DNA from: Bacillota bacterium
GTDB lineage: Bacteria > Bacillota > GCA-003054495 > Carboxydocellales > JAJZTU01
Direction of reading: 5' to 3'
Assembly (NCBI GenBank): GCA_021848765.1
Contig: JAJZTU010000001.1
Coordinates: 1 to 55,762 of the forward strand
DNA length: 55,762 nucleotides
The position numbers and the translations under genes are program-made. Below the pieces are notes generated by a model. That model worked only from the letters and a program-made list of their open reading frames with translations. It ran no database searches and was not told the DNA's origin. Numbering within the stretch: position 1 is the stretch's first letter; each line of letters starts with the position of its first letter. Below are positions 14,261 through 25,155 of the stretch, piece after piece.

Positions 14261-14659
14261 ATGCAAGCCAGAGAATTTGGCGAATTCCTTCGTGCCCTAC
14301 GAAAAGAAAAGGGATTGACTATACGGCAAATTGAAACATACACAGGTGTATCTAATTCATATCTATCGCTTGTGGAGAATGGCAAGCGGGGTATCCCTTC
14401 GCCAGATATCCTAAAACAGCTTGCCCCTGCCCTAAAAGTAACCTATGAATTTTTAATGGAAAAAGCAGGATATATAGAACAAGAAGACCCGAAACCACCA
14501 ACGACCATGGACCCCAAAGACTTGGAGGGCCTCATCAGGATGCGATTCGCTAACTCAAAAGTACCAAGGAGAATAAAGGAACACCAACTGCAGTCAATAA
14601 TCAACTCCATCAAATCATTGGAGGAAATGGAAAAAGAAGAGTTTGGAGATGAGGATTAA
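14261..14659 (+). CDS. ImmR/CI-like XRE-family repressor
   Basis: 132 aa with the HTH LTIRQIETYTGVSNSYLSLVENGKR. It is followed on the same strand by the ImmA-type protease and the integrase. Confidence 0.8.
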   Translation: MQAREFGEFLRALRKEKGLTIRQIETYTGVSNSYLSLVENGKRGIPSPDILKQLAPALKVTYEFLMEKAGYIEQEDPKPPTTMDPKDLEGLIRMRFANSKVPRRIKEHQLQSIINSIKSLEEMEKEEFGDED

Positions 14660-14663
14660 AAAA

Positions 14664-14690
14664 CTACCTACCCGAAAGGGCGGTAGTTTT
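14664..14690 (+). terminator. Intrinsic terminator/attenuator between the repressor and immA
   Basis: Hairpin CTACC-ta-CCC-GAAA-GGG-c-GGTAG followed by TTTT. Confidence 0.55.
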
Positions 14691-14739
14691 CGACATTTAA
14701 AAGGTTTTTTCGACATCATTCGTGAAGGAGTGACCCAAT

Positions 14740-15402
14740 GTGACAAGCAAAGCGGAGATTCAGAGCAGGGTTTTTCTTCAGGCTAGAAATATAACCAAGT
14801 ACCCCTTGGACTTAGAGGAAGTAGTTAAAACCTTACAAATGTCGAAACATGTCAAAATTATCTACGATTACACTCTTGATGATGAGATTGATGCATATCT
14901 TTATGAGTCAAAAAGACGGCTTTATATTGTCGTCAATGGCCACCGTCCACCCGAACGACAGCGATTTACTATTGCGCACGAAATAGGGCACCTTTATATT
15001 GGACACGAGCCGGTACGCATAAATGGGTGGGACATGCATGAGGATTACCAGGAAGATGAAGCAAATGATTTTGCTGCTGGGCTTCTTATGCCAGCCTCTA
15101 GGGTATACACTTTAGCCGAACATCACCGTAATGTGTTGCAACTCCTGGAGGTTGTAAAAAAATACTTTGATGTATCCCTGGCAGCAGCAGCAAAGCGCAT
15201 CACTAACCTGGATATTTTTCGAGGCGCAATCTTATTAAAGGACAGGGCTGGGCAAAATACATACTTCAATTACCGCACTTCAGATTTTTATGATGATAAT
15301 GAATATCGGTTTTATCATGAGAAAAAATTGCCCGGGAATAAACTGTTGCATGTACTGGTAGCAGAAACCTACAGACATGTAGTCAGGTGGGAGATAGGGT
15401 AG
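14740..15402 (+). CDS. immA: ImmA/IrrE-family zinc metallopeptidase (anti-repressor protease)
   Basis: 220 aa with the HExxH motif in FTIAHEIGHLYIGHE and a downstream E (EDEANDFAAGLLMP). It is adjacent to the XRE repressor. Confidence 0.85.
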   Translation: MTSKAEIQSRVFLQARNITKYPLDLEEVVKTLQMSKHVKIIYDYTLDDEIDAYLYESKRRLYIVVNGHRPPERQRFTIAHEIGHLYIGHEPVRINGWDMHEDYQEDEANDFAAGLLMPASRVYTLAEHHRNVLQLLEVVKKYFDVSLAAAAKRITNLDIFRGAILLKDRAGQNTYFNYRTSDFYDDNEYRFYHEKKLPGNKLLHVLVAETYRHVVRWEIG

Positions 15403-15627
15403 AAACCGGAGGTTCAATTAGACGCAAAAAAAATTAACGAAGAGGTCGGATCCCCTTTACCAGTTTTTTTAGCTCCAAGTGGACTTAAACCCTTTATATC
15501 AAAGGAGTTGCTAGAAGGATCCCTCACCCCTGTTGAATATCAAGATGGAAAGCGAATTACAAAAGGTTTTTTCGCCCACTGTGGCGAATTCTTTTTCATA
15601 TTTTGGACAAGCATAATTAAGAGGTGA
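15403..15627 (+). pseudogene. Start-less gene remnant, possibly a P63C-domain fragment
   Basis: 74 open codons with no start codon. The segment ..LPVFLAPSGLKPFISKELLEGSLTPVEYQDGKRITKGF.. resembles the LP.FL...NLKPFIS core I recall from P63C-domain phage proteins. Confidence 0.3.
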
Positions 15628-15631
15628 TAGC

Positions 15632-17086
15632 ATGAGAGGATTTGGCTACATTCGGGTTTCAACTGAAGAACAGGCGCAAGATGACCGCTATAGCATTTCA
15701 ACCCAAACTAATAAAATTAAATCTCACTTCAAAAAAAACGGCATCGTGCTGGTTGATACATTCATAGATGACGTAAGCGGGAAGGGTACTGCAAAGAGGG
15801 ATGAGTTTCAGGAGATGCTCAAAAGGTTGGATGAGGTGGATTTAGTCGCAGTTACCGAAGTTGACCGCTATGCAAGAAACATGCTTGATAGCCTTAATAC
15901 CGTTGACCAAATCATAAAACGAGGGAAATCTTTTATTGCCATAGAGGATAACCTGGAAATAACAGCGACCTCATCAGAGAATGATGAACTAAATTTTCAT
16001 GTTAAATCTATGTTTGCCCACTATTTCAGCAAACAACTTGCCAGGAAAGTAAAAAATAATATGCTTGAAAAAGCCTCCAAGGGGGGTTATAACACCAAGG
16101 CCCCTTTGGGTTATAACCTGGCAGAGAAAAAACTGGTTGTGAATGAAAATGAAGCAACAATAGTTAAAAAGATATTCGACTATTACCTTCAGAATATGGG
16201 CATACGAGCCATAGCCGAGGAGTTAAACCGATTAGGCTATAGGTCAAAACCTACCAAGAATTTTCCCGCCGGAGCCCCGTTTCAAGCTTTCCCTGTTCGT
16301 AAAATATTAAAAAACCGGGTGTACATCGGCATAACCTCTTGGGGAGGGATAATAAAAAAAGATACTCATGAGCCAATTATTTCCGAAGAACTATTCAATG
16401 AGGTCCAAAAACGAATAGAAAGAAAAGGTGAAATGGGTGGTCGTGCGCAATCCAGCGATTTTCTTCTTTCTGGAATTCTAAAATGTGGCCATTGTGGGCA
16501 ATCTATGGTTGGTAATAAAAACAAGGGCAGGTACTCCAAAACAAAGGATCGGGCGCCTATTTACCGCCGGTATATCTGCAACAACTACCAGAAAAATGGT
16601 GGGTGCAGCTTTGTTTGGGGTCATTGCGCCGATGTAGAAAAAACAGTATTAGATTATATTGAATCGGAAGTACCAAGAGAGGAGGCCTCTAAGTATTTGA
16701 ATCAAACCCCTATGGCCTTCGACCCGGAAAAACTAAAAAAAGAGCGCGACAGCATTAGACACGCTCTTGAAGAAGAAATGCCTACCAGATATGACAGACA
16801 AATTCAGTTATATGAAAAAGGCAGAATCGATGATGAAAAATTAGACATAGCTTTTAGTCGGCTAAAAAAAGAAGAGGAGGATCTGAAGAAAAAACTCCAG
16901 GAGTTGGAGAGTAAATTAACTCTTACCCCTGAAGCATTAGAGGAAATGCGCAAAGCTCGTTTAGCTACTTTTTATTCGGTTTTCGATAAAGACGACATTG
17001 CCCAACGAAAGGCATGGGTTCAAAACAATATCAAGGAAATCCGCTATTTTGATATAGATACTATTGAGGTTATATCGTATATTTAG
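15632..17086 (+). CDS. int: Large serine recombinase (integrase)
   Basis: 484 aa. It has an N-terminal resolvase domain (GYIRVSTEEQ), a recombinase domain, a Zn ribbon (CGHCG...CNNY..GGC) and a C-terminal coiled coil. Confidence 0.92.
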   Translation: MRGFGYIRVSTEEQAQDDRYSISTQTNKIKSHFKKNGIVLVDTFIDDVSGKGTAKRDEFQEMLKRLDEVDLVAVTEVDRYARNMLDSLNTVDQIIKRGKSFIAIEDNLEITATSSENDELNFHVKSMFAHYFSKQLARKVKNNMLEKASKGGYNTKAPLGYNLAEKKLVVNENEATIVKKIFDYYLQNMGIRAIAEELNRLGYRSKPTKNFPAGAPFQAFPVRKILKNRVYIGITSWGGIIKKDTHEPIISEELFNEVQKRIERKGEMGGRAQSSDFLLSGILKCGHCGQSMVGNKNKGRYSKTKDRAPIYRRYICNNYQKNGGCSFVWGHCADVEKTVLDYIESEVPREEASKYLNQTPMAFDPEKLKKERDSIRHALEEEMPTRYDRQIQLYEKGRIDDEKLDIAFSRLKKEEEDLKKKLQELESKLTLTPEALEEMRKARLATFYSVFDKDDIAQRKAWVQNNIKEIRYFDIDTIEVISYI

Positions 17087-17089
17087 GCA

Positions 17090-17135
17090 TTTCTATTGTG
17101 ATATCTTTGGTAGCCCTATGATTCCACAATAGAAA
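17090..17135. repeat. Perfect 11-bp inverted repeat with a 24-nt spacer (int terminator and/or attP candidate)
   Basis: TTTCTATTGTG (17090-17100) and CACAATAGAAA (17125-17135), located 4 nt after the int stop. Confidence 0.7.
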
Positions 17136-17424
17136 CCCATTTTCTAATCACTCCTCACGGGCAATTATAGCGCAATTATTGGCTGTGTGCAATGTTTAGG
17201 AGTTGATTTCGGAGGCGGCCCACTGGTCGTCTTTTAGCATTTCCTGAGTCCTTTTTGATCTGCTTCGCTCCGGCCCCCCATCATCTCCCCTAACCCTTCT
17301 TAATTTTGGTTGAATTTGTTGATAAATTTGCACATGGACAAATTAAATGAGTCGTTTCTAGTTTCTGGAACGTATATATAAACGAATGGATAAGGAGAAG
17401 CCAACGAATGAGCAAGCGAACGGA

Positions 17425-17634
17425 TTAAGGCAGTTTATCAATCCACTTTTCTACCCTAGCTTTCTTCTGTTCTAAATCCTGGATAACCGGACTTAATTCC
17501 TTGGCAATCAAGTTAACTGCCGTTATGGTAGCGAGCAATATCACCAAATAGCCTACCAGTTTCTTGTCAAGCACCAGGCAAATTACATAGATCAGAACAG
17601 CCAAAGTTGCAATAGCCATAAGCTCAGCTAGCAT
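17425..17634 (-). CDS. Small two-TM membrane protein
   Basis: 69 aa with two hydrophobic helices and a charged C-terminal tail. It is the last gene of the FtsK block. Confidence 0.6.
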   Translation of the reverse strand: MLAELMAIATLAVLIYVICLVLDKKLVGYLVILLATITAVNLIAKELSPVIQDLEQKKARVEKWIDKLP

Positions 17635-17635
17635 T

Positions 17636-17869
17636 TTATTTCAACCCCGCAATCCCGGCCACGGCCCCAATTGCTTTAGCGACTTCACTAACAACCAATC
17701 CGATACAGACAAAGATAGTCACAATCCTGATAAAGCCCGCCGCCTTCCCGTTCTTGGCCGCCTGCGCCAGTGTTTCCAGTAGCCAACCTACTACCGCAAT
17801 CAGCATGAGTTGAACCATCACCGCAGCTGGGCCGCCAAAGCCAAAAGTGTGCTTAGCTAATTCTGCCAT
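17636..17869 (-). CDS. Small two-TM membrane protein
   Basis: 77 aa with two hydrophobic helices. It overlaps the end of the Replic_Relax gene. Confidence 0.6.
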   Translation of the reverse strand: MAELAKHTFGFGGPAAVMVQLMLIAVVGWLLETLAQAAKNGKAAGFIRIVTIFVCIGLVVSEVAKAIGAVAGIAGLK

Positions 17870-18513
17870 GACATGGCCTCCTCTCGAATGTCCCTTAACA
17901 ACCGCACGTCAAAGTTAAGACCTTCCGTATTCTCCTCCGCTATGTGCTGGAGTATTTTTTCCTTCCTGGGCACTGATGTTGTCACCGTTAGGATGGTCGG
18001 AAACTTATCCGTCAATTCTACCCACCACCTATCCTCATAACCACCCTGCCGGAACAACTGACAATATTTTGTCACCTTGTCAAATTTGTTCCCAGGACTC
18101 CGGTCCATTTCAATAAAATAGAATCGAAATTGCCCTGTAACCGTATTTTTTACAGCCACAAAAGCGTCGCAGCGTAAAACGCCATAATTCTGCTCATACA
18201 AAAAGCAATGCACCTTTTCCCAAGATCTTTTTGTTTTCTCCAACCACACCCTAACCCAATTAATGCCCTCCAAATGGGCGCTCATTGCGTTTTTATCGCC
18301 CAGTGAATATAATAAATATCCTTCTTCTGCCCTCCAGCGGTTTACAGAGCCTTTTAGGGCCAGTTTTCTGAGCCTTTCCTGGGACTTGCGCTGTGAGGAT
18401 TGAATGTCAAAAAAAAGCATCAACCTAACCTGGTGCGCATCAGTCACTCCCCATTCTTCAATCATCTTTAGAATAGCCTTATCTCGGGAATAACCTTTTT
18501 GTCGTTTGTTCAA
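17857..18513 (-). CDS. Replication-relaxation (Replic_Relax, PF13814-like) protein
   Basis: 218 aa. The N-terminal winged-HTH pattern (SRDKAILKMIEEWGVTDAHQVRLMLF...QERLRKLALKGSVNRW...YSLG) is typical of the family. It overlaps the FtsK-like gene. Confidence 0.6.
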   Translation of the reverse strand: MNKRQKGYSRDKAILKMIEEWGVTDAHQVRLMLFFDIQSSQRKSQERLRKLALKGSVNRWRAEEGYLLYSLGDKNAMSAHLEGINWVRVWLEKTKRSWEKVHCFLYEQNYGVLRCDAFVAVKNTVTGQFRFYFIEMDRSPGNKFDKVTKYCQLFRQGGYEDRWWVELTDKFPTILTVTTSVPRKEKILQHIAEENTEGLNFDVRLLRDIREEAMSWQN

Positions 18514-19594
18514 ATTCCCACCCCCTTTCCGGGAAGGCTATTTTCTTCCGTTGTTCTTTAGATAGGCACATGGTCTGCACTTCTTTGAACTCTCCACCAA
18601 ACCGGAAGATAGCTCTACCCTTAACCGCCGGTAACCAGGCTGCTTTAGAGCATTCTTCCCCCAGGATGACCCGGGAGCTAATTTCACTGCCCACCTTAAA
18701 GCACATCCTAGCCTCAAATAAATCCCTACACTGTCCTGGGATAACTGATACATCCGGCCTTTGGGTAGCGGCTACCAGGTGAATCCCCACCGCCCGGGCT
18801 AATTGGGCAAGCTTTGTCAGCATTTCCATGCTTTCTTTACTGATCTGCGCCACCTCATCGAAGATAGCTACAATGTACGGCAGAGTAGAATCATACTCCT
18901 GGATCTTGGTCACAGAGACATCAGCTTGCTCCAACAGGGCTATTCTGCGGCCGTATTCCTTAAGCAACGCCTTCAGCAGTCCCTGCGCTTCTTCATCGTC
19001 CCTGGCAAGCAGGATATATCTTCCTAGATAGCGGAAGTCTAACCTTTTTGGGTCACTAATACATACCCAGGCTCGGGGAATTAGGGCATTAGCCAAGCAG
19101 TGCAGGAACATGGTTTTCCCCCACCCCGTCTGACCTCCTACCAACAGGTGAGGACTATCGCACAGGTCAAACACTTCTAACCCCTTCTGGCTGCACCCAA
19201 TAGGGATAGGTAGTTCCATGTGCTCATATTTACCAGAATCCCAGGCATACTCTACATAATTAGGCAGTTCGCTAGTTTGAATCTCCATGTGCAGTTGTCC
19301 GTTCCATGTCATATTGACAAAGCCCTTTACTGCATCGGAGAAAAAGTTCTCTTTTGCTTTGCACTGCTTAAAGCTTATCCCGGGTGGTAGGTTAAACACT
19401 AAATACCAACCATAAGGAGTCTTTTGCTTGCTAACCATTACTGGCCTTCGTTTGTCCTTTGTCTCAAATCGCAAGTTGTCAAAGGTGTCCAGGATTAACC
19501 CTGGAATCTCATTTCCTGGCCGGTGCCGCCAGGTGTGCCGGATTAAACTGGTCAACTCTACAAGCACGCCTTCTTCTTTAGGCAATTTATTCAC
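18479..19594 (-). CDS. FtsK/SpoIIIE-family DNA translocase ATPase (TcpA/TraB-like)
   Basis: Walker A is GGQTGWGKT, Walker B is YIVAIFDEVAQ, and HLVAATQRPD is present. There is no N-terminal TM segment. The probable real start is TTG at 19585, 8 nt after GGAGG. Confidence 0.85.
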   Translation of the reverse strand: MNKLPKEEGVLVELTSLIRHTWRHRPGNEIPGLILDTFDNLRFETKDKRRPVMVSKQKTPYGWYLVFNLPPGISFKQCKAKENFFSDAVKGFVNMTWNGQLHMEIQTSELPNYVEYAWDSGKYEHMELPIPIGCSQKGLEVFDLCDSPHLLVGGQTGWGKTMFLHCLANALIPRAWVCISDPKRLDFRYLGRYILLARDDEEAQGLLKALLKEYGRRIALLEQADVSVTKIQEYDSTLPYIVAIFDEVAQISKESMEMLTKLAQLARAVGIHLVAATQRPDVSVIPGQCRDLFEARMCFKVGSEISSRVILGEECSKAAWLPAVKGRAIFRFGGEFKEVQTMCLSKEQRKKIAFPERGWEFEQTTKRLFPR

Positions 19595-19657
19595 CTCCCA
19601 TTCGTCCTTGTAGCGTATATTTATTCCTGGGTGGTGATGATTATGCCTTTCCCGGAT

Positions 19658-19692
19658 AAAAAATAAAACCCTGCGGTTAATCTTCCACAGGG
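19658..19692 (-). terminator. Intrinsic terminator overlapping the 3' end of the XRE gene
   Basis: On the minus strand, CCCTGTG-10 nt-CGCAGGG followed by TTTTATTTTTT. Confidence 0.6.
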
Positions 19693-19889
19693 TCTATTAG
19701 GTCCTCCATATGCAATTCGGGGAAATCGGCTTTCAGTTTCTGGTATATAGCCCACAGCGTTTCAAGAGACGGCTGCTTTTTGTGATGCTCCCATTGATTG
19801 ATCTGCCCTGGCCTCACCCCCAGGTACTCAGCAAACTCAGTCTGGTCCATCTCTTTACGGTGCCGCCAGTGCTTTAGCCGGTTTCGCAT
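19677..19889 (-). CDS. XRE-family HTH regulator
   Basis: ATG at 19889 follows GAGGTGGTGG. The HTH is MDQTEFAEYLGVRPGQINQWEH. Confidence 0.7.
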   Translation of the reverse strand: MRNRLKHWRHRKEMDQTEFAEYLGVRPGQINQWEHHKKQPSLETLWAIYQKLKADFPELHMEDLIDPVED

Positions 19890-20068
19890 GTCCACCACCT
19901 CACAGAGATATTCGCCCCAGCTTGTCCCAATTCCTGCCAGGAAATAGAAAAACCCCGGCATTTAGTCAGGGCTATCTTCTTCAATTTCCCTCCTCCTATT
20001 GACATATGCTATCTAGCCACCTTCCGCGAACGGTCGTTTTTCACCCCCGAATGGCCGAATATTCCCTG

Positions 20069-20097
20069 TTGACACCATGGCACCATTATGCTATACT
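20069..20097 (+). promoter_or_regulatory. Near-consensus sigma-A promoter TTGACA-N17-TATACT
   Basis: TTGACA at 20069-20074 and TATACT at 20092-20097, about 70 nt upstream of the ATG at 20168. Confidence 0.7.
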
Positions 20098-20167
20098 GTA
20101 ATCACAGCAAAGGAAATGGCAGCGCAAATCGGTCAGCCCCACCGACGGGGCGGAAGGAGAATGCAAA

Positions 20168-20680
20168 ATGAAAATCAAAGTATCCGGCTACAGCGCCAAT
20201 GAAGGAACCCGCGAGTTTGAGATTCTGGAGCGCGAAGAACTCCAGACCAAGATTGACAACCTTTCGAACACGGAAGTTTTTCGTCGCACTTTCGAAGAGG
20301 CTAGGGCATATAGACACACCGGCACCGCCTACACCTACATAGATGCCCGGAGCGGTGAAATCAAGACCTGCTGGCTTGGATCGAACACCACGAACCACCC
20401 CTGGGATAGTTTCTATGAAATCTGGCTATGTTCCCTGAAAACCGGAAATGGCGAGCAGAATTTTGGGGTTGAGGACCTGCTCGACACGTCGAGCGCAGAG
20501 TACGAAAAGTATCTGGAGTCGGACCTGAACGCAGAGGACTTCATTAGCACTAAATATGGTGCCGATGACCTTGCTGAACGAATTGAAAACGCCATATCGT
20601 GGCAAGCAGTGGAGTTCTACTTCGATGAGGATGATATAGAACGCCAAATCGAAGAGTTATATTCCGACCCAACGGAGTAG
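20168..20680 (+). CDS. Acidic hypothetical protein (170 aa)
   Basis: RBS is GGAAGGAG. The sequence is strongly D/E-rich, especially at the C-terminus (FDEDDIERQIEELYSDPTE). It is the first gene of the GC-rich operon. Confidence 0.7.
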   Translation: MKIKVSGYSANEGTREFEILEREELQTKIDNLSNTEVFRRTFEEARAYRHTGTAYTYIDARSGEIKTCWLGSNTTNHPWDSFYEIWLCSLKTGNGEQNFGVEDLLDTSSAEYEKYLESDLNAEDFISTKYGADDLAERIENAISWQAVEFYFDEDDIERQIEELYSDPTE

Positions 20681-20970: not shown

Positions 20971-21129
20971 ATGATACATATTAAGGTGTTCTTCGCAAAT
21001 GGCGATTCCCTAGTTACCGGTTTCAATGGTAGTATGTTGCAGGCTTGCAACTACTACGTGGGCCATGTTTTTCAGCTGGGGATATCGGAATCCAGCAAAT
21101 CGAGAGCTGTCAGAATAGAGCAACTCTAG
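20971..21129 (+). CDS. Hypothetical small protein (52 aa)
   Basis: ATG follows the conserved AAGGAGGATGAATA cassette. It is below the ORF-track cutoff. Confidence 0.4.
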   Translation: MIHIKVFFANGDSLVTGFNGSMLQACNYYVGHVFQLGISESSKSRAVRIEQL

Positions 21130-21197
21130 CCCCTCCCCAGGGGCCATAATAAAGGAGGATGAATAACTATGAAAATTTATCAAACAGCAAGAAGTTG

Positions 21198-21225
21198 TTT
21201 ACATGCGCCACATATGTGGTATACT
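21198..21225 (+). promoter_or_regulatory. Candidate internal promoter TTTACA-N16-TGgTATACT (extended -10)
   Basis: TTTACA at 21198-21203, TG at 21217-21218 and TATACT at 21220-21225. Confidence 0.45.
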
Positions 21226-21240
21226 AGTATCAAGAGATGA

Positions 21241-21331
21241 GCCTCAAGTGAGGCGCACTCAAATCACAGCCCCCCGGAAGCTGAGATTCCGGCCCTGGCG
21301 AGTGCCAGGTGTCCCGCCCGAGTGGAGCGGG
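21241..21331 (+). promoter_or_regulatory. Structured 5' leader made of four consecutive hairpins, the last reaching the RBS
   Basis: The hairpins are GCCTC-aagt-GAGGC (21241-54), CCGGAA-6nt-TTCCGG (21275-92), CCTGGC-gagt-GCCAGG (21294-309) and CCCGC-9nt-GCGGG (21313-31). The last overlaps GGGAGGAAGGAG. Confidence 0.35.
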
Positions 21332-21345
21332 AGGAAGGAGTCAAA

Positions 21346-21639
21346 ATGAAAAAGACTACTACTCAACTGTCCGAGCAAGTGCTCAAAGCCGCACAAGAGT
21401 ACCTCAATCGCCGTGACCGCATCAGTCACCCCTCCGGTAGCTTTGATAAAGCCGGGCGGTGGTATCCCAGCGAGTCCGAAACTTGCGACTGCTGCGGCGC
21501 AATCTGCAGTCCCTCCCGAGCATTTCCGTACAGTTATATGGTGCACTGCCGGACAGCCGGCCATGTCGCCAAACTATACGGCGTGGATGTCAAAGAGCTG
21601 CTGAAGGCAGCCCGGCAACTCGAGAAAGCCACAGCCTAA
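21346..21639 (+). CDS. Cys-rich hypothetical protein (97 aa)
   Basis: ATG at 21346 follows GGAGGAAGGAG. The sequence includes ..CDCCGAICS..HC. Confidence 0.6.
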   Translation: MKKTTTQLSEQVLKAAQEYLNRRDRISHPSGSFDKAGRWYPSESETCDCCGAICSPSRAFPYSYMVHCRTAGHVAKLYGVDVKELLKAARQLEKATA

Positions 21640-22064
21640 TTCCCCAATTGGACACCGCATAACGAGATACATTCCTGCCCCCATGGGTGTGCAAGGGCAG
21701 GACGCTACAAGCCAGGCAACGGATCGATTGCCGACCTGGTGCGTTGGAGACATCGATCGACGGCGAAAGGACGGCACCGCATCTGCTAGCGACCGTCTCC
21801 GTTTGGCACAGTAGCAGGCGCCAATAAGCCCGGTAGAGTGGGTCTGTAGCCGGGTGGTGCGAGTTGACTGACCATGATAGCAGCGGGAGTCCCGGCATAG
21901 GCGACGATTAACGCGCCGGAGAGGATGCCAGTGCGCCGGGACGGTCTCAGTCAGGTAGTGGGGACCGAGACAATATATTACACTGCTGGCAGTCAGACGA
22001 TACTGCCCAGTGGCGAGTGCCGCTGTGCCAGCCGGAAGTACCGGCGGCAAGAAAGGAGTCTCCC
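21640..22064 (+). ncRNA. Candidate large structured non-coding element (RNA or ssDNA); function unknown
   Basis: This ~425-nt GC-rich gap has no credible ORF. It carries dense stem-loops (21674-701, 21711-40, 21746-800, 21828-55, 21981-22012, 22019-48). The strand is assumed from the flanking genes. Confidence 0.3.
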
Positions 22065-22916
22065 ATGACAACCCAAAAAGCAACTATCGCCTACTTGCTG
22101 AGCGAGGAGGGCCGCAAGAAGTCCCTGCTCCAGGGCGGGAACGGCAAGGGGGAACAGGTTCTGGATGCCGAAATCACTCCAGAGCTGCTGAAGTTAGCCT
22201 TTGTGGACAGGGACGGCAGCGTTAAGCTGCGAGTTGGCAGTGACAGCGGCTACAGCCCCCTGAACTGCTTGGACTACAGGCTTGAAATTGATACTTATAG
22301 TGGCAAGCCACACATGAAGGAAGTTGGGGAGTTTGTCAGATTCAATGCCCCCCAGACCGCTGAGGCCCTCATCGCCTTTGAGACCGCCCGCCAAGCGAAA
22401 CTGGAGGCCCGGAAAGCCGAACTCCAGCCGGAATATGACCGACTCATGGCAGAGTACGAGTCCCGCATGGCAGAGAAAAAGGCCCGCGAGGAAGAAGAGG
22501 CAGCCCGCGACAGAGCTGCACGGGAAGCCCAGGAAGCTGAGCGCAAGGCCGAACGCGAGCGGCTGGAGGCCGAGAAACTCCAGTGGATTCAGGAGCACGG
22601 CAGCGAGTGCCTCCGGGATGCCGTGGACCTTGGCTACGACTGCCAACGGAAGTATGTCGCCCAGCGGACAGACATGGAGTTTCCCGGCTACATCGTCGAC
22701 TTCGATGATACCGCCGAGTGGAAGTCCCGCTCCTGCCCCAGTCGGGAGGCCCTGGCAGAGGTCAAGGACCTCATCGCCAAGGGGTATGACGCGAAGGTGG
22801 TCTGGCTGACAGTTACTCCGGCGCAATTACCGGAGGAAGAATGGCCATTCCGACCCTGCGAGGCAATTGTGATTCGCAACTACCTTGGTAAGTACGACCT
22901 GGTCAAGGAGGTATGA
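22065..22916 (+). CDS. Hypothetical protein with a central charged coiled coil (283 aa)
   Basis: ATG at 22065 follows AAAGGAG. The central region is an E/R/A-rich helix (EKKAREEEEAARDRAAREAQEAERKAERERLEAEK). Confidence 0.7.
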   Translation: MTTQKATIAYLLSEEGRKKSLLQGGNGKGEQVLDAEITPELLKLAFVDRDGSVKLRVGSDSGYSPLNCLDYRLEIDTYSGKPHMKEVGEFVRFNAPQTAEALIAFETARQAKLEARKAELQPEYDRLMAEYESRMAEKKAREEEEAARDRAAREAQEAERKAERERLEAEKLQWIQEHGSECLRDAVDLGYDCQRKYVAQRTDMEFPGYIVDFDDTAEWKSRSCPSREALAEVKDLIAKGYDAKVVWLTVTPAQLPEEEWPFRPCEAIVIRNYLGKYDLVKEV

Positions 22917-22917
22917 C

Positions 22918-23040
22918 ATGGACGGGTACTGCTGGCAGTGTGGCTTGCCCCTGGTTAACGACGAGGCAACCGGCGAATCCGAAGATGACTGTTATTGCGC
23001 CGAATGTCTAAAAGAGATTATGAACGAACAGCATAACTAG
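22918..23040 (+). CDS. Zn-ribbon mini-protein (40 aa)
   Basis: The sequence is MDGYCWQCG...CYCAEC. It starts 1 nt after the upstream stop. Confidence 0.45.
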   Translation: MDGYCWQCGLPLVNDEATGESEDDCYCAECLKEIMNEQHN

Positions 23041-23079
23041 TCCCCGCCAAGTGGCCGGGGTTGCGGCAAACAAGTGTGA

Positions 23080-23132
23080 GCCGCCTGGGAATCATTGCAG
23101 ACAATTAGCCTGCGTGTCTTAGGCGGCTTTTT
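23080..23132 (+). terminator. Terminator of the GC-rich operon
   Basis: GCCGCCT (23080-86) pairs with AGGCGGC (23121-27) and is followed by TTTTT. The loop is long. Confidence 0.5.
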
Positions 23133-23268
23133 AATTTTGAGAGGAGTTGAAACATGAGAATTCAAATTCCGGCATTTATTCGCATGGGGTATAGTGGAGG
23201 TTAAGATTGATTATAAACCTGACCCAAACAATACCAAACAATAGGATTCTGAAGGTTGGTGATTATCT

Positions 23269-23592
23269 TTGACTGTCGAATGGTTTGAAATAGAAACTGC
23301 TAAAAGAAATATTCTGTCGATCAACTTTGCTAAATCTGCCGTGGGTTTGAGTAAATTTTTAGCTGAAGACTTGAAAGAAAAAAACGCAACACATATCCAA
23401 ATCGGATATGACGATCAGAGAGAAAAACTAATCGTTAAACCGAGCAAAAACGGACTAAAGCTACTAGGAAGCCGCAAAGCCGGAACAGTAACTCTCACTA
23501 AAGTATTAACCGCCTGGCTCGAAGAGAAGAATGTAAAAGGTAAATATGAGTTGGTTTATGACGAAGCGCGAGGCTGGTATGAGTCAAAATGA
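23269..23592 (+). CDS. Hypothetical protein (107 aa)
   Basis: TTG start follows GAAGGTTGGTG. It lies in the AT-rich block. Confidence 0.5.
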   Translation: MTVEWFEIETAKRNILSINFAKSAVGLSKFLAEDLKEKNATHIQIGYDDQREKLIVKPSKNGLKLLGSRKAGTVTLTKVLTAWLEEKNVKGKYELVYDEARGWYESK

Positions 23593-23832
23593 GTGGTTTG
23601 GTTCGCCTCTCTCAAAGGCTGTGCTTCTTGCGGCAAGGAGTTTAAGCCAAACAGTAACGTACAAATCTACTGCAGTACGACATGTGCAGAGCGAGAAAAA
23701 AAGAGGCAAAAGCGCCGGAGGCGCAGAGAAAAAAGTTTATGTATATATTGTGCCAATCCATTGGATATGAATGCGGCCTATTGTCAAAAATGCTCAGATT
23801 ACTTTAGAGACGCAAAGAGGAAAGGGGATTGA
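23593..23832 (+). CDS. Basic Zn-ribbon protein (79 aa)
   Basis: GTG start. It has CASCG...CSTTC, then KKRQKRRRRREK, then CIYC...CQKC. Confidence 0.5.
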   Translation: MVWFASLKGCASCGKEFKPNSNVQIYCSTTCAEREKKRQKRRRRREKSLCIYCANPLDMNAAYCQKCSDYFRDAKRKGD

Positions 23833-23835
23833 TAA

Positions 23836-24060
23836 ATGGGTTTACTGACCCCAACCCAACAGTTGGTTGACTACATTTTGGGTTTGTTGTGCGGGTTATA
23901 CATTATTACACGTAAAAATTATCGTGACCTTTTACCAGATGTTGTCCTTTTGTTCAGCGACAATAAAGCGGTTATTGCTTTGCTCGTAACCTATATTGGA
24001 GGCTATTTTATGATCCCCTGGATTTTTTATCACACATTCCGGGGACGCAAGGAGGATTAA
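23836..24060 (+). CDS. Small membrane protein (74 aa)
   Basis: Two hydrophobic segments. RBS is AGGAAAGGGG. Confidence 0.55.
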   Translation: MGLLTPTQQLVDYILGLLCGLYIITRKNYRDLLPDVVLLFSDNKAVIALLVTYIGGYFMIPWIFYHTFRGRKED

Positions 24061-24062
24061 CT

Positions 24063-24485
24063 ATGTCAGACTACACGAGACCAACTATCCACATCCGCTC
24101 AAACCTGGACGAACAAATCAAGTCCCGTGGCTCCCGCAGTACCGTCATCTCCCGCGACCTGGAGCGGCTGTACACCCTTTACCGCCGGGCACTAGCGGAA
24201 GTCAAGCTCACTATTGACGAGGCCTGCCTCATTGTTGACGCGCTCAACGGCAGCCTGATGGATGCCAACACAGCCCGGCTACTGTGGGCCAATATTGCCG
24301 ATGCCGTCAGCATGGACGGTTTGGACGAAAAGTGGTCAGTCGATGGTCCGGCATTGGTTGAGAAGCTGCGCGGGCTGAGCGATATTCAGGCCTTGGCCGT
24401 GGTTGATGCGGCAGAACGGTTTTGGCAAGGGCCATATCGGGAAACGGATATATACGAAGCCGTCGAAGAGTGTTTTTTGGTTTAG
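24063..24485 (+). CDS. Hypothetical protein (140 aa)
   Basis: ATG follows AAGGAGG. It is followed directly by a terminator. Confidence 0.65.
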   Translation: MSDYTRPTIHIRSNLDEQIKSRGSRSTVISRDLERLYTLYRRALAEVKLTIDEACLIVDALNGSLMDANTARLLWANIADAVSMDGLDEKWSVDGPALVEKLRGLSDIQALAVVDAAERFWQGPYRETDIYEAVEECFLV

Positions 24486-24553: not shown

Positions 24554-24760
24554 TTAGACGTACAGTCTGAACTCCGGAAATCTTTGAGAAAGCATATTCC
24601 AAGAGTCAGGTTTATTCTTTTTAAGCCAAGTAAGTGTATACTGCCGCATAGCATCACCAGTCAACCTTGCTGTTGTGCGCCCCTCAAATCCTTGGTGGCT
24701 GTACCAGTCTAAATAAGGTAATTCGTGCTCGACAATATACGCCCCAATATCCGCTGTCCG
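24554..24760 (-). pseudogene. Frame-shifted 3' continuation of the Cys-rich gene 24709-25155
   Basis: 68 start-less open codons in the -1 frame (..AYIVEHELPYLDWYSHQGFEGR...RFPEFRLYV). They end 8 nt before the terminator stem. Confidence 0.4.
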
Positions 24761-25155
24761 CTAACGGCAATAGCAAACAGAAACGGTGGTTCGGGCGGGT
24801 TGAGTAGGATATTCCGGAATTCCGACCGGCCAGGGTGCTGTAGTTTATCTTTGGTCGCCAGCAAGGAATAGTTACGCAAGCTCCGCTGTCCCAAGCAGAA
24901 AGCACAGCCCTGACACAACGAACTGCTGGTCATGTTCTTGGCCAGGTCTTGGTCGGTGAAGGTGTCTTTAATGCCTTTTTTTGTGGAGATACCCAGCCCT
25001 TTCGTGTGTCCACCGCACAGCCAGCAGGCATCATCTTCAACAGCTATATAATCTAGGTCAGGGTATTCGATAACCTTTTCCCCAGCCCGGATTGGTCCGC
25101 CTCGGAGGGCCGCTTGGCGGATAAATTGAGTATTGGTTATCAGTTCCATCGCCAT
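24709..25155 (-). CDS. Cys-rich hypothetical protein (CxxC...CxxCxxC), apparently truncated
   Basis: 148-aa ORF containing CWLCGG...CQGCAFC. It overlaps the upstream gene by 16 nt. Confidence 0.6.
   Translation of the reverse strand: MAMELITNTQFIRQAALRGGPIRAGEKVIEYPDLDYIAVEDDACWLCGGHTKGLGISTKKGIKDTFTDQDLAKNMTSSSLCQGCAFCLGQRSLRNYSLLATKDKLQHPGRSEFRNILLNPPEPPFLFAIAVSGQRILGRILSSTNYLI

What the first reader, a model, noticed from the sequence alone, without database searches (positions are those of the whole stretch)
21640..22064. A ~425-nt GC-rich, ORF-free, densely structured element inside the cargo operon
A 425-nt gap lies between the 97-aa gene and the 283-aa gene. Its only long ORFs are antisense, Arg/Cys/Pro-rich and overlap each other, so they are not credible.

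The sequence is packed with stems:
- CCTGCCC/GGGCAGG (21674-21701)
- a bulged CCAGGCAA/TTGCC..TGG hairpin (21711-21740)
- GGAGAC/GTCTCC closing a 43-nt domain (21746-21800)
- GCCCGG/CCGGGT (21828-21855)
- an 11-bp interrupted stem CACTG-GGCAGT/ACTGCC-CAGTG (21981-22012)
- GCCGC/GCGGC (22019-22048), ending 3 nt before the RBS of the next gene

A GCGCCGG direct repeat occurs at 21913 and 21933.

I recognised no match to riboswitch, RNase P, tmRNA, 6S or group I/II intron cores.

The candidates are a novel large structured RNA, a single-strand origin or Frpo-like ssDNA promoter of a transfer leading region, or an oriT/clt-type site for the adjacent FtsK/Replic_Relax block.
Basis: partly seen in the sequence, partly recalled or inferred. 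Interest (0 to 1): 0.7.

Follow-up and report, generated by a model that had tools for sequence, protein, structure and literature searches.

The report
Tetraloop-hairpin mRNA leader plus unconserved spacer
Only the last ~100 bases of this 425-base gap are a real, conserved RNA structure: hairpins with a fixed four-base loop sitting just before the ribosome-binding site of an uncharacterised phage gene family. The other ~330 bases are unconserved spacer that folds no better than chance.

Summary
It is not one large structured element.

**5' part, 21640-21965.** It is absent from every relative. It has no folding excess (z -0.8, the same as coding controls), no Rfam hit and no protein homologue.

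**3' part, about 21966-22064.** It folds into three adjacent hairpins (z -4.1) that end at the Shine-Dalgarno sequence of the 283-aa gene. This part is conserved, with heavy covariation (92% paired against 61% when shuffled). Its core unit is a hairpin of any stem sequence capped by C(RAGU)G.

**Distribution of the unit.**
- 79 copies lie on the sense strand and 2 on the antisense strand, across 66 loci that encode the 283-aa family.
- The loci come from MAGs labelled Bacillota, Anaerolineae, Thermomicrobiales, Ktedonobacteraceae and Nitrospira.
- Copies usually come as a tandem pair ending about 12-17 and 31-47 nt before the start codon.
- The same motif precedes the 97-aa gene (21294-21332) and recurs beside the operon terminator (23042-23084).
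- It stays at background in 24 viral loci that have the 97-aa family but lack the 283-aa family.

**Best reading.** A new cis-acting mRNA operator, probably bound by a cassette protein (most likely the 283-aa protein). The oriT, ssDNA-origin and giant-ncRNA readings are rejected.

The parts
21198..21225 (+). Sigma-70-like promoter (TTTACA-16-TATACT with TG extension). It probably drives the p97-p283-p40 operon.
   Evidence: 10 of 12 matches. No other + strand promoter-like site before 23285, and no + strand terminator-like site between 20276 and 23108.
21232..21345 (+). 5' leader of the 97-aa gene, a second copy of the motif. It holds hairpin CCUGGC-GAGU-GCCAGG (21294-21309), a hairpin at 21312-21332 with GAGU in its loop, SD GGAG at 21337-21340, a possible anti-SD helix GAUUCC 21285-90 / GGAGUC 21337-42, and an extra AAGU hairpin at 21241-21254.
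   Evidence: CM R1 hit of 56 bits at 21286-21348. Fold z = -3.7. The same leader precedes the p97 homologues in L082, L091, L087, L018, L016 and L119. The 21241-54 hairpin carries a mismatch in L082 and L091.
21346..21639 (+). 97-aa gene (p97): an uncharacterised family with a conserved FDKAGRWYP...PSRAxPYSYMVHCRT core.
   Evidence: AF2 pLDDT 90.5, with no fold match in PDB. No Pfam, PHROG, PADLOC or NCBIfam hit.
21640..21965 (.). Lineage-specific spacer: not conserved, not significantly structured, not coding.
   Evidence: Absent from all relatives, whose gaps are 91-210 nt. Fold z = -0.8 on + and -1.9 on -. blastx against all ORFs of 92 loci found nothing. No similarity to the four genes that fill this interval in L118. 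The antisense ORF is an orphan. No Rfam hit at E <= 10. No tandem repeats.
21966..22064 (+). Conserved structured leader of the 283-aa gene; the hairpins listed next lie inside it.
   Evidence: 91% identical over 58 nt to L082-85 and 76% over 93 nt to L087-89. MFE -41.6 kcal/mol, 51% of the ensemble, z = -4.1. CM R1 hit of 55.9 bits at 22001-22067.
21988..22007 (+). Hairpin C: GGCAGU / ACUGCC, loop CAGACGAU.
   Evidence: Compensatory changes in L087 (GGCGGU/ACCGCC), L037 and L036. Helix 95.8% paired, with 2 pairs changed on both sides; only four sequences.
22008..22025 (+). Hairpin A: CAGUGGC-GAGU-GCCGCUG. A 7-bp stem capped by the conserved C(RAGU)G.
   Evidence: 96.6% of cells paired over 34 distinct sequences. 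6 of 7 pairs covary and the closing C-G never varies.
22027..22048 (+). Hairpin B: GCC(A)GCCGG-AAGUA-CCGGCGGC. Its 3' arm ends 6 nt before GGAG.
   Evidence: The pairs covary (helices 2 and 3, 84-85% paired). In distant clades this proximal hairpin is also capped by C(RAGU)G and directly abuts AAGGAG.
22052..22067 (+). Shine-Dalgarno sequence (AAAGGAG; GGAG at 22055-58) and the ATG (22065) of the 283-aa gene.
22065..22916 (+). 283-aa gene (p283): an N-terminal beta-rich domain, an 80-residue helix (99-178) and a conserved C-terminal alpha/beta domain. It is the candidate trans-acting partner of the hairpins.
   Evidence: AF2 pLDDT 96.5. No fold match in PDB or BFVD. No Pfam family. The C-domain family has 832 representatives of 50%-identity clusters. 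Co-occurrence with the hairpins.
22918..23040 (+). 40-aa Cys-rich ORF (p40), with its start next to the p283 stop codon.
   Evidence: Called in L090; sequence. Not analysed further.
23042..23084 (+). Third site, with no SD after it: CCCCGCC-AAGU-GGC(C)GGGG (23042-23060), then GCGGC-aaacAAGUguga-GCCGC (23063-23084). The 3' arm of the second hairpin overlaps the 5' arm of the terminator stem.
   Evidence: The same arrangement (RAGU hairpins followed by a GCCGCCUGG... terminator) occurs after the p283 homologues of L091, L087 and L092. In L082 the first hairpin is inverted (loop ACUU).
23078..23135 (+). Intrinsic-terminator-like long hairpin followed by UUUUUAAUUUU: the end of the p97-p283-p40 operon.

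Best explanation
The 425-nt gap is two things.

**(1) 21640-21965: non-functional or lineage-specific spacer.** It lies in an interval where relatives carry between zero and four unrelated small genes.

**(2) About 21966-22064: the structured leader of the 283-aa gene inside a p97-p283-p40 mRNA.**
- Its functional unit is an RNA hairpin whose stem sequence is free, but whose apex is C(RAGU)G.
- The usual form is a tandem pair, with the proximal hairpin ending at the Shine-Dalgarno sequence.
- In the window, hairpin A has a GAGU loop and hairpin B an AAGUA loop, preceded by hairpin C.
- The same unit precedes the 97-aa gene and sits against the operon terminator.

**Proposed mechanism (inferred, not shown).** The loops are recognition sites for a sequence-specific RNA-binding protein encoded in the cassette. 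The best candidate is the 283-aa protein, whose 80-residue helix would allow a dimer (inferred) to read two loops. Bound next to the SD, the protein would block or modulate 30S binding, giving autoregulation and co-regulation of the cassette genes. Bound at the 3' site, it would compete with terminator formation or protect the 3' end.

**Shown:** conservation, covariation, strand specificity, position relative to the SD, and co-occurrence with the 283-aa family.
**Inferred:** protein binding, the identity of the binder, and the direction of regulation.
For: **Structure is real and is RNA**
- Hairpin A is 96.6% paired, 6 of 7 pairs covary, and the whole model is 91.6% paired against 61% when shuffled and 30-72% when slid.
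- Among all CRAGTG sites in p283 loci, 79 of 233 on the sense strand have stems of at least 5 bp, against 2 of 81 on the antisense strand.
- Allowing G.U raises the count from 62 to 79. Allowing A.C raises it only to 64.
- The stems are unrelated in sequence, G+C-rich or A+U-rich, while the loop is fixed.

**Position**
- Hairpins end 11-18 nt or 31-47 nt before start codons. The proximal one abuts AAGGAG.
- In L002/38/39, L119, L104 and L016, a TTGACA...TATACT-type promoter lies just upstream, so the motif is a 5' UTR.

**Regulon-like distribution**
- The motif precedes 39 p283-family genes, 6 p97-family genes, 3 genes of a third small family and a few orphans.
- In the window there are exactly two CM hits, 56 and 55.9 bits, before p97 and p283; the next best scores 9.7 bits.
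- On the cassette + strand there are 4 perfect hairpins against 0.24 expected.

**Link to p283**
- Of 25 IMG/VR loci fetched through p97, only L104 also has a p283 C-domain, and only L104 has the tandem hairpins.
- The other 24 loci (175 kb) show 5 (+) and 3 (-), which is background.

**3' site:** the RAGU hairpin overlaps the terminator stem in the window and in L092, L091 and L087.

**Spacer:**
Against: - There is no experimental datum: no transcript map and no binding assay.
- Neither p283 nor p97 has a recognisable RNA-binding domain or fold.
- Ascertainment is uneven. The positive set was fetched through p283, and the negative control is only 24 loci.
- Hairpins at the operon's 3' end have no SD, so a purely translational role is incomplete.
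- Some homologues carry loop variants (GAAU, AAAU, AUGU, GUGU), and a few show no clear hairpin.
- The window's proximal loop is AAGUA, not a clean tetraloop.
- The outer helices that would sequester the SD are not conserved for the p283 leader.
- The origin of the 336-nt spacer is unexplained.
Confidence: 0.55

Rival explanations
1. The hairpins are generic mRNA processing or stability elements read by host enzymes. They would act as 5' stabilisers against RNase J/Y, or as RNase III-type sites that cut the polycistronic mRNA before each cistron and protect the 3' end. Phage T7 and SP82 intercistronic sites work this way. No cassette-encoded reader would be needed.
For: - Stable G+C-rich hairpins sit directly 5' of SDs and at the operon's 3' end.
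- The window's leader is intercistronic, with no promoter of its own.
- AAGU and AGNN tetraloops are known recognition signals for a eukaryotic RNase III, Rnt1p. This rests on paper titles listed and on my own knowledge.
Against: - A generic stabiliser would not need an invariant loop.
- It would not be confined to loci that encode p283. Viral loci with only p97 lack it.
- The motif is absent from the rest of the 55.8-kb phage genome.
- Bacterial RNase III is not known to read tetraloops (my own knowledge).
Confidence: 0.2
2. The hairpins are nut/RAT-like antitermination signals. A protein bound to the RAGU hairpins in the nascent RNA would modify RNA polymerase or prevent terminator folding, allowing read-through into the downstream cassette genes (23269-24485).
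For: - The 3' copy (23063-23084) shares GCCGC with the 5' arm of the terminator stem (23078-23129), and the same layout recurs in L092, L091 and L087.
- Copies lie in a promoter-proximal leader and before a terminator, as lambda nutL and nutR do (my own knowledge).
Against: - The dominant, phylum-wide feature is abutment to the SD at a fixed distance from start codons, with no terminator downstream of the leader copies.
- The loop is a 4-nt RAGU, not a boxB-type pentaloop.
- There is no CAT/PRD or N-like protein.
- There are two to five copies per short operon.
Confidence: 0.1
3. The 5' 336 nt (21640-21965) is the decayed remnant or deletion scar of genes that once lay between p97 and p283. 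It is a sub-claim about the spacer only, and it is compatible with the best explanation.
For: - The p97-p283 interval is variable. It is 91 nt in L119, 110-210 nt in L082, L086, L087 and L091, and holds four genes in L118.
- The spacer's G+C content (0.60) matches the flanking genes.
Against: - There is no detectable similarity to any ORF in 92 loci or to the L118 genes.
- No frame is conserved, and the only long ORF is an antisense orphan.
Confidence: 0.3
4. The whole 425 nt is one large structured non-coding RNA of the GOLLD/ROOL/OLE kind.
For: - The gap is long, G+C-rich and ORF-free.
- Whole-region fold z-scores are -2.1 to -3.2.
Against: - The energy excess comes only from the last ~100 nt; the other 336 nt give z = -0.8.
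- That 336 nt is absent from every relative.
- There is no Rfam hit, even at E <= 10.
- There is no promoter or terminator that would define a separate transcript.
Confidence: 0.03
5. It is a DNA-level site: a single-strand origin, an Frpo-like ssDNA promoter, or an oriT/clt for the neighbouring FtsK/Replic_Relax genes.
For: - FtsK and Replic_Relax genes lie 2-4 kb away, at 17857-19594.
- Folded as ssDNA, z is -2.9 and -2.7.
Against: - The conserved part travels with the p283 gene into loci without any FtsK or relaxase.
- It is repeated before start codons and is sense-strand specific.
- G.U is tolerated but A.C is not.
- The ssDNA folding excess is no greater than the RNA excess and has the same local source.
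Confidence: 0.02

Closest known systems
Start-associated sequences (SAS) and extended SAS of Cluster K mycobacteriophages (PMC3203893)
   Same: - A repeated motif in one orientation, tied to the translation starts of a subset of non-structural phage genes.
- It includes the SD, often with an inverted repeat just upstream.
- Its function is unknown, and a role in translation is suspected.
   Different: - SAS is a conserved 13-bp sequence (GGGATAGGAGCCC), which is absent here.
- The ESAS arms have a conserved sequence. Here the stems are free and only the tetraloop is fixed, with clear RNA-type covariation.
- The hosts are different phyla.
- Here the motif is linked to one protein family.
Protein-bound translational operators: MS2/PP7 coat-protein hairpins, the E. 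coli thrS operator with two hairpins read by a dimeric enzyme, T4 RegA and gp32 sites (my own knowledge; review PMC3014915 was listed but not read)
   Same: - Hairpin(s) at or against the SD or AUG.
- Recognition through loop nucleotides, with the stem sequence free.
- A tandem arrangement that would suit a dimer.
- Autoregulatory placement in front of the candidate binder's own gene.
   Different: - No binding has been shown here.
- The candidate protein has a fold that matches nothing in PDB or BFVD.
- The loop is a C(RAGU)G tetraloop.
- Copies also occur at the operon's 3' end.
Lambda nut (boxA-boxB) sites and BglG/SacY RAT antiterminators (my own knowledge)
   Same: - Small hairpins in a leader and before a terminator.
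- The 3' copy overlaps the terminator stem, as a RAT element does.
   Different: - The loop type and length differ.
- No N-like or CAT/PRD protein is present.
- Most copies abut an SD and have no terminator after them.
C(UUCG)G hairpins in phage T4 intercistronic regions, and AGNN/AAGU tetraloops read by yeast RNase III Rnt1p (my own knowledge; titles listed)
   Same: A specific tetraloop closed by C-G on otherwise variable stems, recurring between phage genes. An AAGU loop is a documented protein-recognition signal.
   Different: - UUCG hairpins are explained by their thermodynamic stability and are not linked to one gene family.
- Rnt1p is eukaryotic.
- Neither is positioned against the SD.

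Membership tests
Any Rfam 15 family (riboswitches, RNase P, 6S, tmRNA, introns, GOLLD, ROOL and others) | Covariance-model score at or above the family's gathering threshold | tested here: not met
   No hits in the whole window. Only two chance-level hits at E 4-10 in 21100-22300, neither inside the gap. No hits in 16 related loci, 108 kb.
Large structured ncRNA (GOLLD/ROOL/OLE kind) | Hundreds of nt conserved among relatives, with covarying helices throughout | tested here: not met
   Only the last ~60-100 nt aligns to relatives. The 5' 336 nt has z = -0.8.
Protein-bound translational operator | Structured element overlapping or abutting the SD or start codon | tested here: met
   The proximal hairpin ends 11-18 nt before the start codon and directly abuts AAGGAG. 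In the window, hairpin B ends at 22048 and GGAG lies at 22055-58.
Protein-bound translational operator | Loop nucleotides conserved while the stem sequence varies with pairing kept | tested here: met
   The C(RAGU)G apex is near-invariant. 6 of 7 stem pairs covary and 96.6% of cells are paired. 79 stems have unrelated sequences.
Protein-bound translational operator | A trans-acting protein binds the element and changes translation | not testable with these tools
   Only co-occurrence is available. Hairpins are present in p283 loci (79:2) and at background in 24 p97-only loci.
SAS/ESAS of Cluster K mycobacteriophages | 13-bp GGGATAGGAGCCC at start codons | tested here: not met
   No matches with up to 2 mismatches.
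SAS/ESAS of Cluster K mycobacteriophages | One orientation, start-codon association, and only a subset of genes | tested here: met
Lambda-type nut site | boxB hairpin with a GNRA-like pentaloop | tested here: not met
   The loop is a 4-nt RAGU.
Lambda-type nut site | boxA element upstream of boxB | not tested
   I did not search for a boxA consensus.
RAT / BglG-type antiterminator | Hairpin mutually exclusive with an intrinsic terminator | tested here: inconclusive
   True for the 3' copy, 23063-23084 against 23078-23129, and for L092, L091 and L087. Not true for the copy inside the finding, which is followed by an SD and not by a terminator.
RAT / BglG-type antiterminator | Associated CAT/PRD antiterminator protein | tested here: not met
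   No such Pfam domain in any cassette protein.
oriT / clt / single-strand origin / Frpo | Genetic linkage to a relaxase, FtsK translocase or rolling-circle Rep | tested here: not met
   The motif occurs in loci without these genes. tblastn found 1 weak FtsK hit and 0 Replic_Relax hits in L001-L081. The cassette lies next to terminase genes in L082, L086, L087 and L091.
oriT / clt / single-strand origin / Frpo | Strand-neutral or DNA-type pairing, and a single site per element | tested here: not met
   Sense strand 79:2. G.U adds 17 hairpins and A.C adds 2. There are 2-5 copies per cassette.
Type III toxin-antitoxin RNA (ToxI-like) | Tandem direct repeats upstream of the toxin gene | tested here: not met
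   No tandem repeat in 21640-22064.
Missed or decayed protein gene | A reading frame with homologues | tested here: not met
   The antisense 169-aa ORF matches only itself. blastx of 21601-22010 against all ORFs of 92 loci found nothing.

The most novel reading that the evidence does not exclude
The C(RAGU)G hairpins and the 283-aa family together form an unrecognised RNA-protein module of phage accessory cassettes. It is found in phages and prophages of several phyla. In this reading, a dimeric protein with no detectable fold relative reads one tetraloop both at the ribosome-binding sites and at the terminator of its own operon, acting as an autonomous post-transcriptional switch. It could gate a prophage-expressed defence or anti-defence cassette.
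Probability: 0.3. Interest if true: 0.7.

Novelty: new member of a known kind. Interest (0 to 1): 0.45.

Why it matters
**What changes**
- The finding shrinks from a '425-nt mystery RNA' to a compact, well-supported RNA motif that is not in Rfam.
- The motif is a hairpin capped by C(RAGU)G, placed against the Shine-Dalgarno sequence.
- It is conserved in MAGs of several phyla and tied to a protein family with no Pfam domain and no fold match (832 representatives of 50%-identity clusters in public data).

**Why that is useful**
- If the protein reads the loop, it would define a new RNA-binding fold and a simple, portable tetraloop-protein pair.
- It would also give a first functional handle on a widespread phage accessory cassette whose proteins are all uncharacterised.

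**Practical consequences for annotation**
- Gene callers place spurious ORFs over these leaders. Examples are the antisense 158-aa protein called on this contig, the N-terminal extension in L086 and the 48-aa ORF in L118.
- A covariance model of the motif would clean up such calls.

Tried and rejected
**RNA and DNA searches**
- Rfam at gathering and at E <= 10: nothing relevant.
- ARAGORN: nothing.
- blastn of the 4.6-kb cassette against 50,697 phage records: no match.
- Single-sequence search of IMG/VR with p283: no relative.

**Function from the proteins**
- Pfam, PHROGs, PADLOC and NCBIfam gave nothing for p170, p97, p283, p107 or p140.
- PDB sequence profiles gave nothing.
- The AF2 models are confident, but Foldseek found no match.

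**The 5' 336 nt**
- blastx against every ORF in the loci, and against the L118 genes, found no similarity.
- The antisense ORF is an orphan.
- Repeats within the cassette are only short chance-level pairs.
- No tandem repeats.

**Other ideas tested**
- A conserved 'CAGACGA' motif linking hairpin C to distant clades is not enriched by strand: 71 against 66. I dropped it.
- SD-sequestering outer helices appear in the window's two leaders, but the one for p283 is not conserved in relatives. I did not rely on it.
- My first shuffle script hung and was rerun.
Full report
**Setting**

The window is essentially one 55.8-kb contig of a Clostridia MAG; P0121 and P0161 lie on a 55,768-nt NCBI contig. 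It reads as a temperate siphophage genome.
- Minus strand: DnaB, helicases, an SbcC-like gene, endolysin, tape measure, major head protein, portal, large terminase and HNH.
- Plus strand: an ImmR/ImmA/serine-integrase block at 14.2-17.1 kb.
- Minus strand, 17.9-20.0 kb: Replic_Relax, FtsK and an HTH gene.
- Plus strand, 20.1-24.5 kb: a cassette with two strong sigma-70-like promoters, at 20069-20097 and 21198-21225.
- Apart from a 47-aa RHH protein and a weak zinc-ribbon match, none of the cassette's ten ORFs matches Pfam, PHROGs, PADLOC or NCBIfam.
- The p97-p283 operon is richer in G+C (0.55-0.59) than its surroundings (0.41-0.50).

**The observation**

The 425-nt gap, the quoted stems, the GCGCCGG repeat and the antisense-only long ORFs are all present as described. 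Rfam and ARAGORN find nothing.

Folding the whole gap gives modest z-scores: -2.1 for RNA +, -3.2 for RNA -, and -2.9 and -2.7 for ssDNA. Splitting the gap resolves this.
- 21640-21975 has z = -0.8 on the coding strand. Neighbouring coding sequence gives -1.2 to -1.5.
- 21976-22064 has z = -3.1.
- 21966-22067 has z = -4.1, and a single structure holds 51% of the ensemble.

**Relatives**

The 283-aa protein has 133 uncharacterised homologues (alignment A1). I collected 92 loci around them from GTDB genomes, IMG/VR, JGI metagenomes and assemblies. L090 is the same contig as the window.
- In the closest relatives the same cassette (p166-p46-p98-gap-p286-p44-p140) lies beside the terminase genes on the opposite strand.
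- There the p98-p286 gap is only 110-210 nt.
- Only the last ~60-100 nt of the window's gap aligns with these relatives: 91% and 76% identity.
- The other ~330 nt is found nowhere else. It matches no ORF of any locus.
- In L118 the same interval holds four unrelated genes. In L119 it is 91 nt.
- The 169-aa antisense ORF, which NCBI's annotation calls as a 158-aa protein, has no homologue among 5.8 billion proteins.

**The conserved element**

Upstream regions of all full-length homologues share two hairpins and then the SD.
- RNAalifold and a covariance model (R1) give a 7-bp hairpin A with an invariant closing C-G and a RAGU loop, followed by a second hairpin B.
- Over 34 distinct sequences, 91.6% of cells pair, against 61% in shuffles and 30-72% when the partner is slid.
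- 11 of 12 pairs show double changes. Hairpin A is 96.6% paired, with 6 of 7 pairs covarying.
- In the window's own clade a third hairpin, C (21988-22007), is also supported, though only by four sequences.
The outer CACTG/CAGTG arm competes with hairpin A. The proposed GCCGC/GCGGC stem does not exist; each half belongs to a different hairpin.

**A repeated unit, not a single site**
- R1 finds exactly two sites in the window, before p97 (21286-21348) and before p283 (22001-22067). They score 56 and 55.9 bits, and the next best scores 9.7.
- In relatives it also hits the leaders of p97 homologues and other cassette genes that were not in the seed.
- Reduced to its core, the unit is a perfect stem of at least 5 bp capped by C-RAGU-G. 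It occurs 79 times on the sense strand and twice on the antisense strand in 66 non-redundant loci, 360 kb in total.
- These include distant homologues that share only the C-terminal domain, in Anaerolineae, Thermomicrobiales, Ktedonobacteraceae and Nitrospira MAGs.
- Anchoring on the loop alone: 79 of 233 sense-strand CRAGTG sites are hairpins, against 2 of 81 antisense sites.
- G.U pairs add 17 hairpins, and A.C 'pairs' add 2. The structure is therefore read as RNA of the coding strand.
- Hairpins end either 11-18 nt or 31-47 nt before a start codon. The proximal one runs straight into AAGGAG.
- In several lineages a consensus promoter lies immediately upstream, so the tandem hairpins make up almost the whole 5' UTR.
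- The genes that follow are 39 p283-family genes, 6 p97-family genes, 3 genes of another small family and a few orphans.
- Loop variants (GAAU, AAAU, AUGU, GUGU) occur in some homologues.

**Linkage to the protein**

As a control, I fetched 25 IMG/VR loci through the p97 family. Only one of them (L104) also encodes a p283 C-domain, and only that one has tandem C(RAGU)G hairpins before its p97 gene. The other 24 loci (175 kb) show 5 and 3 hairpins on the two strands. The motif therefore travels with p283, not with p97.

The p283 model is very confident (pLDDT 96.5). It has a beta-rich N-domain, an 80-residue helix and an alpha/beta C-domain, but no match in PDB or BFVD. The C-domain family has 832 representatives of 50%-identity clusters.

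**A third site**

After the p40 ORF, tandem AAGU hairpins (23042-23084) precede a long terminator. The second hairpin shares GCCGC with the terminator's 5' arm. The same layout follows the p283 homologues of L091, L087 and L092. In L082 the first hairpin is inverted.

**Interpretation**

The evidence fits a cis-acting mRNA operator whose loops are read by a trans-acting factor linked to the cassette. p283 is the best candidate because of the co-occurrence, the placement before its own gene, and a helix that could dimerise to match the tandem sites.
- Binding next to the SD would control translation.
- Binding at the terminator would affect read-through or 3'-end stability.

These mechanistic steps are inferred.

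Rivals that remain open are host-enzyme processing or stabilisation elements and nut/RAT-like antitermination. The giant-ncRNA and DNA-site readings (oriT, sso, Frpo) are contradicted by the distribution, the strand and pairing rules, and the lack of conservation and folding excess in the 5' 336 nt.

The closest described analogue is the SAS/ESAS system of Cluster K mycobacteriophages (PMC3203893). Its defining 13-mer is absent here, and its arms, unlike these stems, are conserved in sequence.

**Verdict**

I class it as a new member of a known kind (a protein-operator-like leader hairpin), of moderate interest.

Noticed in passing
window 24709-25155 (-): A 148-aa protein matches the N-terminal ~100 residues of type IV CRISPR Csf1/Cas8 (PADLOC typeIV_Cas8 at 1.8e-22). 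The TIGR03114 match (1.2e-9) is far below its cut-off. No other cas gene was seen nearby. It could be a Csf1-derived zinc-finger domain or an anti-CRISPR-like decoy in a phage.
   Followed up: no
window 21577-22083 (-): Public annotation of this contig calls a 158-aa 'protein' (P0161) antisense across the whole gap. It has no homologue anywhere and overlaps the conserved leader, so it is almost certainly spurious.
   Followed up: yes
L086 4001-4096; L118 2639-2785: Gene callers translated the structured leader in relatives. P0003 has a 32-aa N-terminal extension, and L118 has a 48-aa ORF lying over the hairpins.
   Followed up: partly
window 14261-19961: An ImmR/ImmA pair, a serine integrase and an FtsK + Replic_Relax + HTH block sit inside an otherwise ordinary siphophage genome. 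This conjugative-element-like translocase/relaxase pair in a phage was not explored.
   Followed up: no
L082 4867-4889 versus L091 3861-3883: The first hairpin after the p283 homologue has loop AAGU in L091 and in the window. In L082 it is the exact reverse complement (loop ACUU), as if the palindromic segment had been inverted at the DNA level.
   Followed up: no
window 21346-21639 and loci L093-L117: The p97 family has a conserved R-x3-HP-x-G-x-FDKAGRWYP...C-x-CC...PSRAxPYSYMVHCRT..H core, a confident AF2 model and no PDB fold match. It is common in IMG/VR viral contigs that lack p283 and the hairpins, so it has a function of its own.
   Followed up: partly
L014 3832-4116, L049 1541-1807, L067 569-859: A third small protein family (motif ILTANTYFW.PS..ASGRRSNE...YSESC.NVYK) lies just upstream of distant p283 homologues. 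It is also preceded by tandem C(RAGU)G hairpins.
   Followed up: no
window 22918-23040 (+): A 40-aa Cys-rich ORF (CWQC...CYCAEC) starts 2 nt after the p283 stop codon. Relatives carry a 44-aa gene at the same place.
   Followed up: no
window 20095-20108 / 21257-21270 and 20152-20174 / 21330-21352: The leaders of p170 and p97 share short direct repeats (ACTnnAATCACAGC, and GGAAGGAG..CAAAATGAAAA). The p170 leader lacks the RAGU hairpins and has no folding excess, z = -0.8.
   Followed up: partly
window 24063-24485 (+): The 140-aa protein is a conserved downstream partner of p283 in at least 14 loci (33-60% identity). It has no known domain.
   Followed up: no
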